From Candidatus Kapaibacteriota bacterium (GTDB taxonomy: Bacteria; Bacteroidota; Ignavibacteria; OLB7), in contig JBMDXA010000080.1 of NCBI GenBank assembly GCA_048594725.1, positions 1,430 through 65,429 of the forward strand: DNA of 64,000 bases, written 5' to 3'. Of this stretch, positions 18,823 to 42,715 are shown one piece after another. The position numbers and the translations under genes were made by a program. The notes under the pieces were generated by a model, which made no database searches, was not told the origin of the DNA, and saw nothing but the letters and a program-made list of their open reading frames with translations. Numbering within the stretch: position 1 is the stretch's first letter; every line of letters begins with the position of its first letter.

Positions 18823-19344
18823 TCACACCAGATGCCGCGGATGAAGTCCTTCCAGCGCTATACAGAAATTCAGCGCCAGATAGGGCTGCATGATAGTATG
18901 GGGCTGGCTCCCCCCGCTTACTCCCATCACGCTGGCATCCAGGGATGCACTGACGGGGGCATCGGTGAAGACACTATCCGTAGAGGCCCCCGAAAACACA
19001 TTACCGGAGGGGAGGGGCCGATCTCCCGCCCCATTATAGGCGTTGATGGGATGCCTGTGGGCCGGCATTTCGTTCACCGAAAGCAGATGCGTTTCTTCTC
19101 CTCCGCTCTGGCCGAGGCCATATTCCTCACGGCCGCCCCCCTCCCCTATGTGTAGCGGCACACGGCCGCGTAGATCGGGAAGGGCAAAGGTGCTGAGGCC
19201 ATCGCCGCCATAGATAGTGCCGATAAGCTCGAAGAGAATGGTATTCTGTGCGATCGGCAGAAGCTGCCCGTTGCACTGGGCCCATCCGTATGGAACGAAA
19301 GGAAATGCCACGGCCATGATCTGGCCGATATACGTACACGCCAT
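18823..19344 (-). CDS. Phage tail collar domain protein (MdpB-like)
   Basis: YIGQI...F.FVP.GWAQCNGQLLPIAQN..LF.LIGT.YGGDG.STFALPDLRGR...QPYLALNFCIALEG. Confidence 0.92.
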   Translation of the reverse strand: MACTYIGQIMAVAFPFVPYGWAQCNGQLLPIAQNTILFELIGTIYGGDGLSTFALPDLRGRVPLHIGEGGGREEYGLGQSGGEETHLLSVNEMPAHRHPINAYNGAGDRPLPSGNVFSGASTDSVFTDAPVSASLDASVMGVSGGSQPHTIMQPYLALNFCIALEGLHPRHLV

Positions 19345-19570
19345 AGTTCTACCGTATGGTATAATCCGGTGATGATCTATTCAGCCTGGCACAGCAGAAT
19401 GCGGATCGATGCTGGCTCCTGGCCTGTTCGGGGAACGTTGTACTCCGCCCGAACAGACCTTCGAAGAAGCCGCTGAGTCAAACTCCGCAATCGCGGCTGC
19501 TACTACCCCGCACGGAGTAGAACGCCGCGCGAACGGCGCGAGATGCAATCCCGCTTCTCATCGAACAGGG

Positions 19571-20116
19571 TCAATTGCTGTAGAAGTGCACATAGGTAGT
19601 CCCCTTTGGCACATCTCCTCCGCCATTATTATAAAATGGCCCGTACTTCTTCGCCCATTTCAGCGATTTCATGGTGGGGTGTACGGTGAGATCGGATTTG
19701 CTGGAGAGATAGAACCACTTCACCTTTGCATTGCTGATCTCCGAATCGAGCGCGGGAAAATTCTCGGTTAAATGATATGGCTTGAGTTTCTTCTCGATGG
19801 CGCTGCTTCCCGGTTTGGCTTTATGGACCTTCTCCCCTCGTTGCCCTACCGCATGGATGGCACCACGAAGCCGGAGCAGATCGCAGGTCTTTGCGGCATC
19901 CCACTTCTCGGGCTCGTATTTATTATCCGCGGTGGGATATAATCCGGAGGTTTCGCCCCAGGAGACTTCGCTCAGGGTGCCGGTCTTCTGCACCGGGCAT
20001 CCCTTCTCATCATCTTTCCTGGCAAATCTGACTCCGTGCGACTGGTTCTGCATCGTTGTGGATGCGGCAGCCGGAGATCCGGCTACCTTTGTGGGTTCCG
20101 ATGTTTGCTCGTACAT
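19571..20116 (-). CDS. Hypothetical protein, candidate eCIS cargo/effector
   Basis: Lys-rich ORF directly downstream of the DUF4157 gene; low-complexity leader resembling that of the DUF4157 protein. Confidence 0.7.
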   Translation of the reverse strand: MYEQTSEPTKVAGSPAAASTTMQNQSHGVRFARKDDEKGCPVQKTGTLSEVSWGETSGLYPTADNKYEPEKWDAAKTCDLLRLRGAIHAVGQRGEKVHKAKPGSSAIEKKLKPYHLTENFPALDSEISNAKVKWFYLSSKSDLTVHPTMKSLKWAKKYGPFYNNGGGDVPKGTTYVHFYSN

Positions 20117-20242
20117 ATGATAATGGTGCTGTTATGGTGATGGAGTACCGAATAGTCCGGCGGACGGCCCATCCTGCGAACAGATGTTCTACGCTATTTC
20201 AGCGAAGCATTCCCGGCCGGGAATAGTCCTATATCCTCCCCG

Positions 20243-40466: not shown

Positions 40467-41150
40467 TCTTTGTTGGTGGATCGGATGGATCAGTATGCTA
40501 CCGTATCGAAGGTTCTGAAATCTTCACGAATCAATGAGTTCCGGGATGGTCGTACCAGTGACTTCTCGCCGTTCTTTGTTGATGGACCGGATGGACCAGT
40601 ATGCTACCGCATCGAAGGTTCTGAAATCTTCACGAATCGATGAGGCACCGATGAATCCTGAAATGGTTGTACCGGTAATTTCTCGCCGTTCTTTGTTGGT
40701 GGATCGGATGGACCAGTATGCTACCGTATCGAAGGTTCTGAAATCTTCACGAATCGATGAGTTCCGGGATGGTCGTACCAGTGACTTCTCGCCGTTCTTT
40801 GTTGATGGACCGGATAGACCAGTATGCTACCGTATCGAAGGTTCTGAAATCTTCACGAATCGATGAGGCACCGATGAATCCTGAAATGGTTGTACCGGTA
40901 ATTTCTCGCCGTTCTTTGTTGATGGACCGGATGAACCAGTGTGCTACCGTATCGAGCGCTCTGACATCTTCGCAATTGATGATGTAGCGATGAGTTCCGG
41001 GATGGTGGTACCGGTGATTTTCACCGTTTTTTGTTGGTGGATCGGATGGACCAGCCTGTTACCGTATCGGGCGCTCTGATATCTTCGCGGATCGATGATG
41101 TATCGATGAGTTCCGGGATGGTGGCACCGGTGATTTTTCGCCGTTCCTTG
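40467..41150. repeat. Tandem array of six 106-117 bp units inside the eCIS operon
   Basis: Units start at about 40467, 40573, 40690, 40796, 40913, 41028 (106/117/106/117/115/117 bp), each TCTTTGTTG.TGGA.CGGATGGACCAGTATGCTACCGTATCG... Confidence 0.92.
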
Positions 41151-41168
41151 TCGGAATATCCGCTCGCA

Positions 41169-42149
41169 TCAGGGCTTTGCTATATGAATTATCATGGTGG
41201 CATCGGCCACCCCGGGCCCGGGCTGCGGCAGATGATGAATCAGCGGCTCCCCGGCTTTCATCAGTTGAATGTTTCTTCGTGCCCGCTCCTGCCGGGCTAC
41301 CGGCAGATCGGATTCGAATACCACGATTTTCTCGGCCGGATCATCCCCCGCAAAAACATCGGTTGAGGAGAATGTCACCTCAGGGCGATCATCTTCGTCG
41401 AATCCCGCATCGGTGATCCCAAGGCTGCCGAATTCCATGCTGCCATAATTGCGGGCGATAACATGGTAGACCAGCTGCTCCCTCTTCGCCTCGAACCGGA
41501 TTTCGAAACCGGGCGCCCCCTCGGAATAGAACCGCTCATCGATGTCGATTTCGACGATGATACAGGCCCCCGTGCGGATCAGATCCGGATCGAAATAATA
41601 GGAGTTTCCTGCGGCGAACCCCGCCGATTCCGTTACCGTGAATGCTCCCGGAGCATATCCGGCGAGATCGAACGCCGCCACCGTCGTCTCCACGTCAGCG
41701 ACTGTCCGGGTCAGCAGAGGAAAGCCGGTTTCATCCTCCAGCAGGACCGTCACCGGCCGCACCGATGTTCCCAGCGGATGCACCAGCGTAGTGCCCGCGG
41801 GCGATAGCGTTTCCGGAGAGCTGAGCGCATCGTACCGGAGGTCATTGCGATACAGCTTGATCGCGGAGGCGGAATCATTGCCCGTGTCGGTGAAATTGCT
41901 GAACCAGGGATTGAGCAGCTTCAGTCCCAGCCGCAGCTTCCGTCCGGCGATCGATGCCAGCGGCGCATCGTATTCATTGGCCTCGAAGATGACATGGTAC
42001 ACGCCATCGATCTCCTTCGCCAGGCATTTCCCCCCTTTCAGGGTTTGCGCGGCATCATCCGGCAGGATGAACTGAAAATCCCTGCATATCCCGCCATAAT
42101 ATTCGTGCGATACCCGCACGGTGAAGAGCGTACGGAAACGGGTTATCAT
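41169..42149 (-). CDS. Conserved CIS protein between cap and sheath (cap-adaptor-like)
   Basis: FRTLF.V.V.HEYY, L..PWF.NFT, C-terminal LI..LP.P; ATG overlaps the cap gene stop (ATGA). Confidence 0.75.
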   Translation of the reverse strand: MITRFRTLFTVRVSHEYYGGICRDFQFILPDDAAQTLKGGKCLAKEIDGVYHVIFEANEYDAPLASIAGRKLRLGLKLLNPWFSNFTDTGNDSASAIKLYRNDLRYDALSSPETLSPAGTTLVHPLGTSVRPVTVLLEDETGFPLLTRTVADVETTVAAFDLAGYAPGAFTVTESAGFAAGNSYYFDPDLIRTGACIIVEIDIDERFYSEGAPGFEIRFEAKREQLVYHVIARNYGSMEFGSLGITDAGFDEDDRPEVTFSSTDVFAGDDPAEKIVVFESDLPVARQERARRNIQLMKAGEPLIHHLPQPGPGVADATMIIHIAKP

Positions 42150-42715
42150 TGGCCTTTCATGGTTGTTGCGATGGTGGTGATGGGCGGTCCCGCCAGTTCG
42201 GGCTCCGCATCCCGGATAATCACCATGCGGACCTTGTAGATCAGCGCAGGCAGCTGCCGTGCTCCGATGCTGGCCCAGACCTGGTTGATCTGCTCGTAGT
42301 TGAGCGTTTGCAGCTCCACTACCAGTTTCTCGATGCGAGGATCGAGCCTGGGATAGCGCGATACGGTAAATACCGGGTGCGACTGAAAAAATGCCATGAT
42401 AAGGGAGAGGCATTTCAGTGCCTGATCGTACTGGGTGAAATTCGCGGCGAAAATCAGATGCAGATTCAGCCGCAATTCCGGCTCCTGTACGATGCGCTGG
42501 TTGTTTGCCGTGGAATATCGCGGCAGATGATCCCGCACCACCCGCTCCTCCTCGATGTTGATCAGGCTGACGCCGACCTCCTGTTCGAGAAACGCATATT
42601 TGCCCGTATCATCAACCATCTTCGTCAGCTTCACCTCGATGGAGGCGGAGCCGGTGCGTGCGACGATATAGGAATTAAGCTCATCCTTCAGAAATTGAAG
42701 CGCTATATCCAGCAT
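42146..42715 (-). CDS. DUF4255 / Pvc16 (Afp16) cap protein
   Basis: SLINIEEE, LNL.LIFAANF..Y..ALK.LS....FFQ....F, L.YEQ.N..W..IG....P...YKVRM. Confidence 0.9.
   Translation of the reverse strand: MLDIALQFLKDELNSYIVARTGSASIEVKLTKMVDDTGKYAFLEQEVGVSLINIEEERVVRDHLPRYSTANNQRIVQEPELRLNLHLIFAANFTQYDQALKCLSLIMAFFQSHPVFTVSRYPRLDPRIEKLVVELQTLNYEQINQVWASIGARQLPALIYKVRMVIIRDAEPELAGPPITTIATTMKGQ

What the first reader, a model, noticed from the sequence alone, without database searches (positions are those of the whole stretch)
18823..42715. Complete single-sheath eCIS operon with downstream cargo genes in a T9SS-bearing FCB-type host
Seen: 17 co-oriented genes, several translationally coupled, covering every structural part of an AFP/PVC/AlgoCIS-type injector, plus ATPase and DUF4157. 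No terminase, capsid, integrase, TssJLM or lysis gene is visible. Known: this inventory defines eCIS rather than prophage or canonical T6SS. Inference: an intact weapon in a possibly uncultured Kapabacteria-like lineage. With no adjacent holin/endolysin, it may be released by remote lysis genes or act from within the cell.
Basis: partly seen in the sequence, partly recalled or inferred. Interest (0 to 1): 0.75.

Follow-up and report, generated by a model that had tools for sequence, protein, structure and literature searches.

The report
AlgoCIS-type contractile injection system operon
This is an intact gene cluster for a phage-tail-like protein injector, closely modelled on one already solved from a marine bacterium, sitting in the chromosome of an uncultured soil or straw bacterium and carrying two uncharacterised toxin-like cargo genes.

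Summary
Together they make up a complete contractile injection system (CIS).

Every structural protein matches the solved AlgoCIS (Algoriphagus) best and the Anabaena thylakoid CIS second. The three hallmarks of that clade are all present: cap adaptor, DUF5908 plug, and the Alg11 spike-cage domain. So is an Alg19/TssK-like fibre.

No operon protein has a transmembrane helix, and the tCIS membrane anchors are missing (Cis13, the Cis12 extension). A free, extracellular AlgoCIS-like mode is therefore the most likely, but it is inferred, not shown.

polA places the host next to Candidatus Kapaibacterium/Kapabacteria. Congeners carry the same operon with different cargo. The core genes cluster with cyanobacterial and betaproteobacterial loci, not with classical Bacteroidota loci.

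Cargo is a DUF4157 protein with a widespread unnamed Cys-rich C-terminal domain, plus a 181-aa protein whose domain elsewhere ends RHS and DUF4157 proteins and has no clear PDB fold match.

Extras: two genome-specific repeat insertions inside the operon and a mosaic sheath.

Verdict: a new member of a known kind, of moderate interest.

The parts
42146..42715 (-). Cap protein (Alg16A/Pvc16 N-domain type), 189 aa from the ATG at 42715. The open frame itself reaches 42775.
   Evidence: Pfam Pvc16_N, E 8.8e-35. 64-66% identical over residues 1-189 to the congener loci L095 and L098.
41169..42149 (-). Cap adaptor (Alg16B/Cis16B type), 326 aa. Its ATG overlaps the cap stop codon (ATGA).
   Evidence: No Pfam match. 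A 23-sequence profile (A1) hits SalCis16b cap at 5e-12, the AlgoCIS cap adaptor 7adz_1A at 1e-10, and tCIS All3326 at 2e-4. The AF2 model has pLDDT 94. Top Foldseek hits are 7b5i_AB (E 1e-16, TM 0.63) and 7adz_1A (E 3e-9).
40451..41151 (.). Intergenic tandem array between the cap adaptor and the sheath: about 6 units of 115/117/106/117/106 nt, which is a 223-nt super-repeat.
   Evidence: TRF score 746-972 with 76-88% matches; units listed. Found only here in the own genome, and in 0 of 20 family genomes. No Rfam match. No fold better than shuffles on either strand. The same junction is about 14 nt in congeners.
38472..40418 (-). The single sheath protein, 648 aa, with outward extra domains (residues about 238-443).
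   Evidence: Pfam Phage_sheath_1C at 1e-14. PDB: the AlgoCIS sheath 7adz_2A matches full length (E 4e-133), then tCIS All3325 (2e-128); PVC and AFP sheaths score only 1e-55 to 1e-59.
37912..38412 (-). Inner tube protein (gp19 family; Alg1 position). The start is either 38412 or the internal ATG near 38346.
   Evidence: Pfam Phage_T4_gp19 at 8e-47. 79-86% identical in congeners.
37475..37915 (-). Second gp19-family tube protein (Alg5 tube-initiator position), 146 aa, overlapping the previous gene by 4 nt.
   Evidence: Pfam Phage_T4_gp19 at 9e-44. Gene spacing. The role is assigned from gene order, as in AlgoCIS (PMC8894135).
37296..37466 (-). Plug protein (Afp6/Alg6 family), 56 aa.
   Evidence: Pfam DUF5908 at 9e-15, 55.7 bits against a cut-off of 27.7. 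Conserved in related loci.
36624..37292 (-). Afp7/Alg7-like tube initiator, 222 aa. By eye the C-terminal tail looks LysM-like.
   Evidence: Pfam CIS_tube at 6e-44. LysM was not scored by Pfam at E<=0.01, so that part rests on my reading only.
34879..36564 (-). VgrG-like central spike, 561 aa.
   Evidence: Pfam Phage_base_V at 5e-23 and Phage_GPD at 1e-9.
34602..34878 (.). Spacer between VgrG and PAAR, made of the genome's dispersed small repeats: GATTTTC/G heptamers directly after the VgrG stop codon, and GTAGTCA / ACTACTGAC arms.
   Evidence: Sequence. 57 matches across the own genome. A 20-40-fold depth spike with many loose ends appears in all 4 runs laid.
34323..34601 (-). PAAR spike tip, 92 aa.
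   Evidence: Pfam PAAR_motif at 9e-21.
33808..34269 (-). gp25-like sheath initiator. The likely start is 34269; the open frame reaches 34371.
   Evidence: Pfam GPW_gp25 at 2e-20. Congener alignments begin at residue 34-35.
30726..33848 (-). Alg11-type baseplate wedge protein, 1040 aa, including the spike-cage insertion.
   Evidence: PDB: Alg11 7aeb_G at 7e-135 and tCIS All3317 at 4e-122. Residues 250-650 alone match Alg11 residues 288-492, which lie within cage domain IV (278-643 per PMC8894135), at 1e-28.
28144..30699 (-). Alg12-type baseplate wedge protein (gp6/gp7-like), 851 aa as an open frame. The likely start is near 30621.
   Evidence: PDB: Alg12 7aeb_A at 2e-149 and tCIS All3315 at 2e-108, both over residues about 55-632.
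25222..28119 (-). Alg19/Cis19-type tail fibre, 965 aa. The N-terminal shoulder and neck are conserved. The C-terminal half is unmatched.
   Evidence: PDB: 9wt0_a (AlgoCIS, 1443 aa) at 1.6e-63 over residues 8-496, and tCIS All3314 at 2e-36. No Pfam match. 47-53% identical in congeners.
23094..25202 (-). Tape-measure protein, 702 aa.
   Evidence: Pfam CIS_TMP at 1.7e-77.
21736..23304 (-). Afp15-type AAA+ ATPase. The open frame is 522 aa; the true start probably lies downstream of 23304.
   Evidence: Pfam AAA at 5e-27. 70-71% identical in congeners from residue 23 or 83 onward.
20243..21649 (-). DUF4157/eCIS_core cargo protein, 468 aa: disordered N-terminus, an HExxH-bearing core, and a Cys-rich C-terminal domain (215-468) of unknown function.
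   Evidence: Pfam eCIS_core at 9e-35. The C-terminal domain has 90 relatives, 85 of which carry PF13699. Nothing in PDB or Pfam matches the C-terminal domain. GC3 is 0.64 against 0.74-0.84 for the structural genes from sheath to ATPase, apart from the 56-aa plug at 0.70.
19571..20116 (-). 181-aa protein: a roughly 40-aa disordered leader followed by a 140-aa toxin-like C-terminal domain of an unnamed family.
   Evidence: 26 relatives, of which 5 are fused to DUF4157 and 1 to PKD. 215 representative clusters. The domain sits at the C-terminus of RHS/DUF6443 proteins and of eCIS_core proteins. AF2 core pLDDT is about 96. No Foldseek hit below 1e-3. The best VIA hits are the SleB catalytic domains, at only Z 3.1 and 2.8.
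18823..19344 (-). Phage-tail-collar-domain protein, 173 aa. It is the last co-oriented gene, and whether it belongs to the system is uncertain.
   Evidence: Pfam Collar at 8e-26. A 226-nt gap separates it from the previous gene. It is 1 of 7 Collar matches in the genome; the other six lie on three other contigs (3, 2 and 1 per contig). It is absent from the congener loci fetched.

Best explanation
The locus encodes a complete contractile injection system of the AlgoCIS/tCIS clade (called subtype Ib for AlgoCIS in PMC8894135).

Inferred assembly, by homology to the solved AlgoCIS:
- A VgrG trimer tipped by PAAR, with the DUF5908 plug inside, nucleates the baseplate.
- The Afp7-like protein and the second gp19 protein start the tube.
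- gp25 with the Alg11/Alg12 wedges forms the iris, and the Alg11 insertion builds a cage around the spike.
- The tape-measure protein sets the tube length.
- The single sheath polymerises from gp25.
- The cap plus cap adaptor terminate the tube and sheath.
- The AAA+ ATPase assists assembly and loading.
- The DUF4157 protein, and probably the 181-aa protein, are carried as cargo.

Inferred action: particles lie free in the cytoplasm, are released when the producer lyses, bind a target through trimeric Alg19-like fibres, contract and deliver the cargo.

What is shown and what is inferred: the identity of the parts is shown by homology. The extracellular mode, the target and the cargo activities are inferred.
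For: - Structural matches: each structural protein's best solved relative is AlgoCIS. These are sheath 4e-133, Alg12 2e-149, fibre 1.6e-63 and Alg11 7e-135.
- Clade hallmarks are present: cap adaptor, plug, cage domain, and a single sheath with extra domains aligned full length to Alg2.
- CIS-specific families TMP, AAA and eCIS_core are present.
- No membrane anchor: none of the 18 proteins has a credible transmembrane segment. Kyte-Doolittle 19-residue windows above 1.6 occur only as 1-2 windows in the TMP and Alg12.
- No room for a Cis13 gene: the Alg11-Alg12 gap is 26 nt as open frames.
- No Cis12 extension: the Alg12 homologue is 851 aa against 1335 aa for tCIS Cis12. These two are the tCIS anchoring features named in PMC8894136 (passages).
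- Fibre type: the fibre is of the Alg19 type, which mediates cell binding in AlgoCIS (bioRxiv 10.1101/2025.10.08.681156, passages).
- Cargo role: DUF4157 proteins are lumen cargo in AlgoCIS (PMC8894135, results section).
- Integrity and conservation: all frames are open. The operon is conserved with the same order in two congeners and one same-class genome, and at about 92-95% identity in three soil runs from two studies.
Against: - The clade mixes modes of action. AlgoCIS and MACs are extracellular, T6SSiv is anchored to the inner membrane, and tCIS to thylakoids (PMC8894135 conclusions). Homology alone therefore cannot fix the mode.
- The core genes cluster with cyanobacterial loci, and the one characterised cyanobacterial system is membrane-anchored.
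- No lysis gene is nearby.
- Two repeat insertions interrupt the operon and might affect co-transcription.
- Expression was not shown.
- The C-terminal half of the fibre and both cargo domains match nothing characterised.
Confidence: 0.62

Rival explanations
1. The apparatus is cell-associated. It would be anchored inside the producer (like T6SSiv or tCIS) or act in the producer's own stress-induced death (like the Streptomyces cytoplasmic CIS), with no release of free particles.
For: - The same clade holds membrane-anchored relatives (PMC8894135 conclusions; PMC8894136).
- tCIS is the second-best solved match for the sheath, Alg11, Alg12 and the fibre.
- On the concatenated core-gene tree the nearest non-congener loci are cyanobacterial and Geobacter.
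- No lysis cassette lies in the 64-kb window.
Against: - No transmembrane helix in any operon protein.
- No Cis13 gene and no Cis12 extension.
- An Alg19-type binding fibre is present.
- By polA the host is not a cyanobacterium, so it has no thylakoids. That last step rests on general knowledge.
Confidence: 0.22
2. The operon is a decaying or silenced relic. The 700-bp tandem array between cap adaptor and sheath, and the repeat-filled VgrG-PAAR spacer, would uncouple the genes so that no functional particle is made.
For: - The array is unique to this genome, and the same junction is about 14 nt in congeners.
- A terminator-like hairpin lies on the coding strand at 40465-40450, just upstream of the sheath start.
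Against: - All 18 frames are open and well conserved.
- Structural genes keep strong codon bias: GC3 is 0.74-0.84 from sheath to ATPase, apart from the 56-aa plug at 0.70.
- Congener G004 also has a spacer of about 280 nt between VgrG and PAAR.
- Terminator-like hits in the region are not clearly above the shuffled expectation: 10 found against 5.7 +/- 2.4 expected.
Confidence: 0.1
3. It is a prophage tail module or an R-type tailocin, not a CIS of the AFP/PVC/AlgoCIS class.
For: It has generic phage-tail families (sheath, gp19, gp25, Baseplate_J, Collar).
Against: - CIS-specific families are present: Pvc16_N, CIS_tube, CIS_TMP, DUF5908, eCIS_core and an Afp15-type AAA ATPase.
- Pyocin and T4 sheaths score only 4e-9 to 1e-3, against 4e-133 for AlgoCIS.
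- No capsid, terminase, integrase or lysis family, and no tRNA, in the window.
Confidence: 0.02

Closest known systems
AlgoCIS of Algoriphagus machipongonensis (PDB 7adz, 7aeb, 9wt0; PMC8894135; bioRxiv 10.1101/2025.10.08.681156)
   Same: - Same gene set, and the same order as far as the paper text read here gives it: short cap plus separate cap adaptor, one sheath with outward domains, tube, Alg5/6/7 equivalents, VgrG, PAAR, gp25, Alg11 with cage domain, Alg12, Alg19-type fibre, TMP, ATPase, and DUF4157 cargo downstream.
- It is the best solved match for every part tested.
   Different: - It is not a close copy. The sheath scores 448 bits against AlgoCIS and 1445 bits against itself.
- The fibre is 965 aa against 1443 aa. 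Only its N-terminal 490 residues match, and no Ig/PKD domain was detected.
- The cap adaptor is 326 aa against 284 aa, and by fold is nearer the tCIS form.
- There is one DUF4157 cargo plus a non-DUF4157 toxin-like ORF, where AlgoCIS has Cgo1 and Cgo2.
- The host is a Kapabacteria-like soil or straw bacterium.
tCIS of Anabaena sp. PCC 7120 (PDB 7b5h, 7b5i; PMC8894136)
   Same: - Second-best solved match for the sheath, Alg11, Alg12 and the fibre.
- Best fold match for the cap adaptor.
- It has a two-protein cap, a cage and a Cis19 homologue.
- On the core-gene tree, cyanobacterial loci are among the nearest non-congener relatives.
   Different: - No Cis13 transmembrane fibre gene.
- Alg12 lacks the roughly 500-residue Cis12 extension.
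- No transmembrane helix anywhere in the operon.
- The sheath here is the long form (648 aa against 484 aa).
AFP (Serratia) and PVC (Photorhabdus), PDB 6rao, 6j0n
   Same: Same overall class, and the Afp1-16 numbering applies.
   Different: - One sheath gene where AFP and PVC have three.
- A short cap plus adaptor where they have a two-domain Afp16/Pvc16.
- No Afp13-type fibre was found with the tools used.
- Much weaker matches: sheath 1e-55 to 1e-59, Afp12/Pvc12 1e-22 to 1e-26.
SalCIS of Salmonella enterica subsp. salamae (PDB 9r9h, 9r9n, 9rce)
   Same: It shares the cap-adaptor family (SalCis16b, 5e-12). It is the third-best sheath match (9e-106).
   Different: Its baseplate proteins are more distant: SalCis12 at 6e-44 and its Alg11 homologue at 7e-56.

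Membership tests
AlgoCIS/tCIS-type CIS (clade Ib of PMC8894135) | Short cap (Alg16A) plus a separate cap adaptor (Alg16B) | tested here: met
   Pvc16_N protein of 189 aa. The 326-aa neighbour matches cap adaptors by profile and by fold.
AlgoCIS/tCIS-type CIS (clade Ib of PMC8894135) | Alg6/Afp6 plug protein | tested here: met
   The 56-aa ORF at 37296-37466 matches DUF5908 at 9e-15, above the cut-off.
AlgoCIS/tCIS-type CIS (clade Ib of PMC8894135) | Alg11 insertion that forms the spike cage | tested here: met
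   Residues 250-650 match Alg11 residues 288-492 at 1e-28. Only the first part of domain IV aligned by sequence.
AlgoCIS/tCIS-type CIS (clade Ib of PMC8894135) | A single sheath gene | tested here: met
   One sheath ORF in the operon. It aligns full length to Alg2.
AlgoCIS/tCIS-type CIS (clade Ib of PMC8894135) | Alg19/Cis19 fibre with a TssK-like shoulder | tested here: met
   Residues 8-496 match 9wt0_a residues 5-487 at 1.6e-63. The fold itself was not modelled here.
AlgoCIS/tCIS-type CIS (clade Ib of PMC8894135) | Placement in clade Ib on a sheath tree that includes reference systems | not tested
   Reference sequences could not be brought into a tree. Placement rests on the ranking of PDB matches.
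Extracellular mode of action (eCIS in the strict sense) | Particles free in the cytoplasm and released to the medium | not testable with these tools
   Only indirect evidence: no transmembrane helix, and no Cis13 or Cis12 anchor.
Extracellular mode of action (eCIS in the strict sense) | DUF4157 cargo and an Afp15-type ATPase | tested here: met
   eCIS_core at 9e-35 and AAA at 5e-27.
tCIS (thylakoid-anchored) | Cis13 fibre with a transmembrane helix, encoded between Cis11 and Cis12 | tested here: not met
   The gap is 26 nt between the open frames, or about 104 nt from the likely Alg12 start. No transmembrane segment in the operon.
tCIS (thylakoid-anchored) | Cis12 extension (aa 610-1100) that contacts the membrane | tested here: not met
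   The protein is 851 aa, and its match to All3315 ends at residue 631.
AFP/PVC type | Three sheath paralogues and a two-domain Afp16 | tested here: not met
   One sheath and a 189-aa cap.
Prophage or R-type tailocin | Linked head, terminase, integrase or lysis genes | tested here: not met
   None among the ORFs scanned in the 64-kb window. No tRNA.
Polymorphic-toxin C-terminal domain (for the 181-aa ORF) | The same domain found at the C-terminus of varied delivery scaffolds | tested here: met
   The domain is C-terminal on RHS_repeat/DUF6443 proteins of 1691-2293 aa and on eCIS_core proteins, and on 5 DUF4157 fusions among 26 relatives.
Polymorphic-toxin C-terminal domain (for the 181-aa ORF) | Demonstrated toxicity, or a cognate immunity gene | not tested
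SleB/CwlJ-like cell-wall hydrolase (for the 181-aa ORF) | Shared fold and catalytic glutamate | tested here: inconclusive
   The two top VIA hits are SleB catalytic domains, but at Z 3.1 and 2.8. There is no profile or Pfam support.

The most novel reading that the evidence does not exclude
The cargo end of the operon would hold two effector families that nobody has characterised.

- The 140-aa domain of the 181-aa ORF is a widespread polymorphic-toxin module: 215 representative clusters, found on RHS, DUF6443, DUF4157 and PKD scaffolds. Its confidently predicted fold has no clear solved relative. It may be a distant SleB-like peptidoglycan-cleaving enzyme, which would make this injector an antibacterial weapon.
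- The system also shows domain-level shuffling. The N-terminal and outer domains of the sheath are nearer to cyanobacterial versions than to those of congeners. The swap boundary coincides with a genome-specific tandem array that may act as a recombination scar or as a regulatory spacer.
Probability: 0.2. Interest if true: 0.55.

Novelty: new member of a known kind. Interest (0 to 1): 0.36.

Why it matters
It adds a complete, apparently intact AlgoCIS-type injector from the little-studied, uncultured Kapabacteria lineage. I found no paper combining "Kapabacteria" with "contractile injection". None of the 12 best-ranked of 457 papers holding at least two of five related terms contained a Kapabacteria term.

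- **Structural model.** Because the AlgoCIS structure maps onto almost every protein, the locus is a ready comparison case for the parts that evolve fastest: sheath outer domains, fibre tips and cargo.
- **Cargo.** It points to two unnamed cargo domains that could be tested cheaply.
- **Limits.** CIS loci are already known to be abundant in Bacteroidota MAGs (PMC12210884, passages), so the find is incremental.

Tried and rejected
- **Expression.** The look-up of sequencing runs listed no RNA holder. Runs X2-X5 are labelled metatranscriptomic but flagged "probably DNA", so nothing can be said about expression.
- **Tandem array as an RNA element.** No Rfam match. The folds were worse than shuffles on both strands (z +1.3 and +1.6). 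No sigma-70-like promoter hit lay inside the array.
- **Synteny or empty-site test.** The window's flanking abhydrolase matched in 0 of 5 congeners at 1e-20. The MBOAT gene matched only in G003, on another contig. None of 11 flank proteins matched beside the operon in G003 or G004, apart from one weak 65-aa hit. No insertion-site conclusion was possible.
- **181-aa ORF.** Pfam, the profile against PDB, Foldseek PDB and the ESM Atlas gave nothing usable. By eye I read P0024 and P0025 as ending an RHS core (motif recalled), but Pfam found no family in them.
- **DUF4157 C-terminal domain.** The Atlas returned only eCIS_core clusters at 0.76. The profile against PDB returned only weak BepA-type HExxH hits to the core (E 0.13).
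- **T9SS machinery.** GldM_1st gave no hit, and the control genomes barely ring, so this is uninformative.
- **Not used.** I ran no complex-prediction job, because no binding claim here needed one.
- **Supplements.** Supplementary tables of the AlgoCIS and tCIS papers (homologue tables) were not opened. [quoted passage not shown]

Full report
**1. What is there**

The window is 60% G+C, so long spurious frames are common. Codon-position G+C picks out one minus-strand series from about 42715 down to 18823.

Pfam names 14 of its 18 members above the curated cut-offs:
- Pvc16_N cap
- sheath
- two gp19 tube proteins
- CIS_tube
- VgrG
- PAAR
- gp25
- Baseplate_J
- CIS_TMP
- AAA ATPase
- eCIS_core/DUF4157
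- a Collar-domain protein

Sequence searches against solved structures name three of the four that remain:
- The 851-aa protein is an Alg12 homologue (7aeb_A, 2e-149).
- The N-terminal half of the 965-aa protein matches the AlgoCIS fibre Alg19 (9wt0_a, 1.6e-63) and tCIS Cis19/All3314.
- The 326-aa protein after the cap is a cap adaptor. A profile of 23 homologues hits SalCis16b, the AlgoCIS cap adaptor and All3326. Its AlphaFold model (pLDDT 94) has 7b5i_AB and 7adz_1A as its top two Foldseek matches.

The fourth, the 181-aa ORF, matches no solved structure and is treated as cargo in section 5.

The open frame for the cap adaptor begins further upstream. Homologues, however, start at the ATG that overlaps the cap stop codon.

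Several gene pairs overlap by 4 nt or are 3-8 nt apart.

**2. Surroundings**

The flanks are ordinary chromosomal genes:
- on one side GNAT, PNPOx, NUDIX and an alpha/beta hydrolase;
- on the other TetR, MBOAT, aldo-keto reductase, MatE, a hybrid histidine kinase and polA.

No capsid, terminase, integrase, holin or endolysin family was found, and no tRNA.

The nearest named relatives of polA are Candidatus Kapaibacterium sp. (75%), Candidatus Kapabacteria bacterium (69%), Chlorobi bacterium CHB2 (64%) and Ignavibacteriae (60%). This agrees with earlier notes on this genome.

The genome has at least 150 Por_Secre_tail matches, one of them in the window. T9SS cargo is therefore abundant.

**3. 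Which kind of CIS**

For the sheath, Alg11, Alg12 and the fibre, the order of solved matches is always AlgoCIS first and Anabaena tCIS second. PVC and AFP follow far behind.

[quoted passage not shown] All three are present here. The single sheath aligns end to end with Alg2, including the outward domains.

The match is homology, not near-identity. The sheath scores 448 bits against AlgoCIS and 1445 bits against itself. The best relative among 185,579 species genomes is 66% identical.

**4. Mode of action**

The tCIS paper (passages) attributes thylakoid anchoring to two features:
- Cis13, a small fibre with a transmembrane helix, encoded between Cis11 and Cis12;
- a roughly 500-residue extension of Cis12.

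Here the Alg11 and Alg12 genes are adjacent. Alg12 is 851 aa and its match ends at residue about 632. No operon protein has a convincing hydrophobic segment. The fibre is of the Alg19 type, which binds target bacteria in AlgoCIS (preprint passages).

I therefore favour a free particle that is released and binds targets. The clade does contain anchored systems, and nothing here tests localisation or expression.

**5. Cargo**

The DUF4157 protein has a disordered N-terminus, the HExxH-bearing core and a 250-residue Cys-rich C-terminal domain. That domain recurs in 90 database proteins, 85 of them with the same eCIS_core domain, from several phyla. It has no Pfam or PDB relative.

The next ORF (181 aa) has a roughly 40-residue low-confidence leader and a compact domain predicted at pLDDT about 96.
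- Of 26 relatives, 5 are DUF4157 fusions and 1 is a PKD fusion.
- A full HMM search finds 215 representative clusters.
- In the large proteins checked, the domain is the extreme C-terminus of RHS_repeat and/or DUF6443 proteins (3 of 10 scanned). It is also found on eCIS_core proteins (3 of 10). One of the 10 carried DUF4143 and 3 carried no family.

That distribution is what polymorphic-toxin C-terminal modules show.

Foldseek found no solved relative at E<=0.001. The exhaustive aligner ranked two SleB lytic-transglycosylase catalytic domains first, but only at Z 3.1 and 2.8, which is within noise. There was no profile support. I treat a peptidoglycan-directed activity as a lead only.

Both cargo genes and the Collar gene have lower GC3 (0.63-0.64) than the structural genes from sheath to ATPase (0.74-0.84, apart from the 56-aa plug at 0.70); the cap and cap adaptor lie between, at 0.71 and 0.69.

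Cargo differs between congeners. G003 has a 1090-aa DUF4157 protein. In G004 no DUF4157 gene follows the ATPase with this query.

The Collar gene is separated by 226 nt. It is one of seven in the genome; the other six lie on three other contigs, 3, 2 and 1 per contig. A collar domain is the receptor-binding end of Pvc13-type fibres (PMC12923769, passages). Whether this copy serves the injector is unknown.

**6. Distribution and history**

Among 60 relatives searched, 18 have some sheath-like match. This includes 7 of 7 congeners and 13 of 20 genomes of the family.

Six genomes hold a sheath of this particular type: G001, G003, G004 and G007 (same genus), and G037 and G053 (same class).

The whole operon is collinear in G003, G004 and G053, but their flanks do not match the window's flanks.

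I built a quick maximum-likelihood tree of concatenated VgrG, Afp7-like, second tube and gp25 segments.
- It has 51 rows.
- 41 of the 91 loci were dropped because they lacked a >=70%-coverage segment for one of the four proteins.
- The loci themselves were the top hits by sheath similarity.

On this tree the window groups with G004 and G003 (SH-aLRT 99-100). That clade falls inside a strongly supported group of cyanobacterial, Geobacter and betaproteobacterial loci (100), which is separate from the Chitinophagaceae, Flavobacteriaceae and Prolixibacteraceae loci. The tree is unrooted, so no direction of transfer is claimed.

Logan contigs of one straw-metagenome run match the operon with 0-1 differences; this may be the source sample. 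Three soil runs from two studies hold versions that are about 92-95% identical.

**7. Oddities inside the operon**

(a) **Tandem array, 40451-41151.** The array has about six units of 106-117 nt and sits between the cap adaptor and the sheath. Congeners have about 14 nt there. It occurs nowhere else in the genome except as two 30-nt fragments, and in none of 20 family genomes. It has no Rfam match and no stable fold.

(b) **VgrG-PAAR spacer, 34602-34878.** The spacer is built from this genome's dispersed small repeats, with 57 matches in the genome. GATTTTC/G heptamers begin right after the VgrG stop codon. This fits the repeat families described in earlier notes on this genome.

(c) **Mosaic sheath**.

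| Sheath region | Congeners | Cyanobacterial loci |
|---|---|---|
| C-terminal third | about 80-85% (also in distant relatives) | about 80-85% |
| Residues 1-237 | 57% (G003), 46% (G004) | 70% (Pantanalinema) |
| Residues 238-443 | 23% (G003), absent from the 472-aa sheaths of G001, G004 and G007 | 44-47% |

**8. Other systems in the genome**

Contig C40 carries a second CIS-type locus. It has sheath, tube, T4_baseplate, Pvc16_N, an AAA+WHD ATPase, two DUF4157 genes, CIS_tube, gp25 and Baseplate_J. Next to it lie a full VgrG, an APOBEC-like deaminase ORF and a ClpV-like AAA_2 ATPase.

**9. Verdict**

This is a new member of a solved class, of moderate interest mainly for its uncharacterised cargo domains and its domain-level variation.

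Noticed in passing
window 40451-41151: A genome-specific tandem array of about 700 bp (units of 106-117 nt, a 223-nt super-repeat) is inserted between the cap-adaptor and sheath genes. It is absent from congeners and from 20 family genomes. It has no Rfam match and no stable RNA fold. A 30-nt piece recurs on contigs C239 and C185, next to CGCGAATCTT repeats.
   Followed up: partly
window 34602-34878: The VgrG-PAAR spacer consists of dispersed small repeats, with 57 matches in the genome. GATTTTC/G heptamers start directly after the stop codon, and there are GTAGTCA-type hairpin arms. The spacer causes a 20-40-fold depth spike in metagenome contigs.
   Followed up: partly
window 38472-40418 compared with L010, L095, L098: The sheath is mosaic. 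Its N-terminal and outer domains are closer to cyanobacterial homologues (70% and 44-47%) than to those of congeners (46-57%, and 23% or absent). Its C-terminal third is about 80-85% identical everywhere. Three congeners have a 472-aa sheath without the outer domains.
   Followed up: partly
G000 contig C40 (L101:1800-18600, L102:40-4989): A second CIS-type locus of another subtype with two DUF4157 genes. Next to it lie a full-length VgrG, an APOBEC-like deaminase ORF and a ClpV-like ATPase, which may be a T6SS remnant or a T6SS.
   Followed up: partly
G012 contig C14, about 46900-59500: A same-family genome has at least eight sheath-like matches in a row on one contig, which is an unusual run of sheath paralogues.
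   Followed up: no
window 43522-44208: A TetR-family regulator is transcribed divergently from the operon start, across an 800-bp spacer. It was not found beside the operon in G003 or G004, so a regulatory link is unsupported.
   Followed up: partly
window 61114-63741 and 46947-47978: A T9SS-sorted surface protein (DUF7619 plus Por_Secre_tail), and a dioxygenase-like protein with a FlgD_ig C-terminal domain. The genome holds at least 150 Por_Secre_tail matches.
   Followed up: partly
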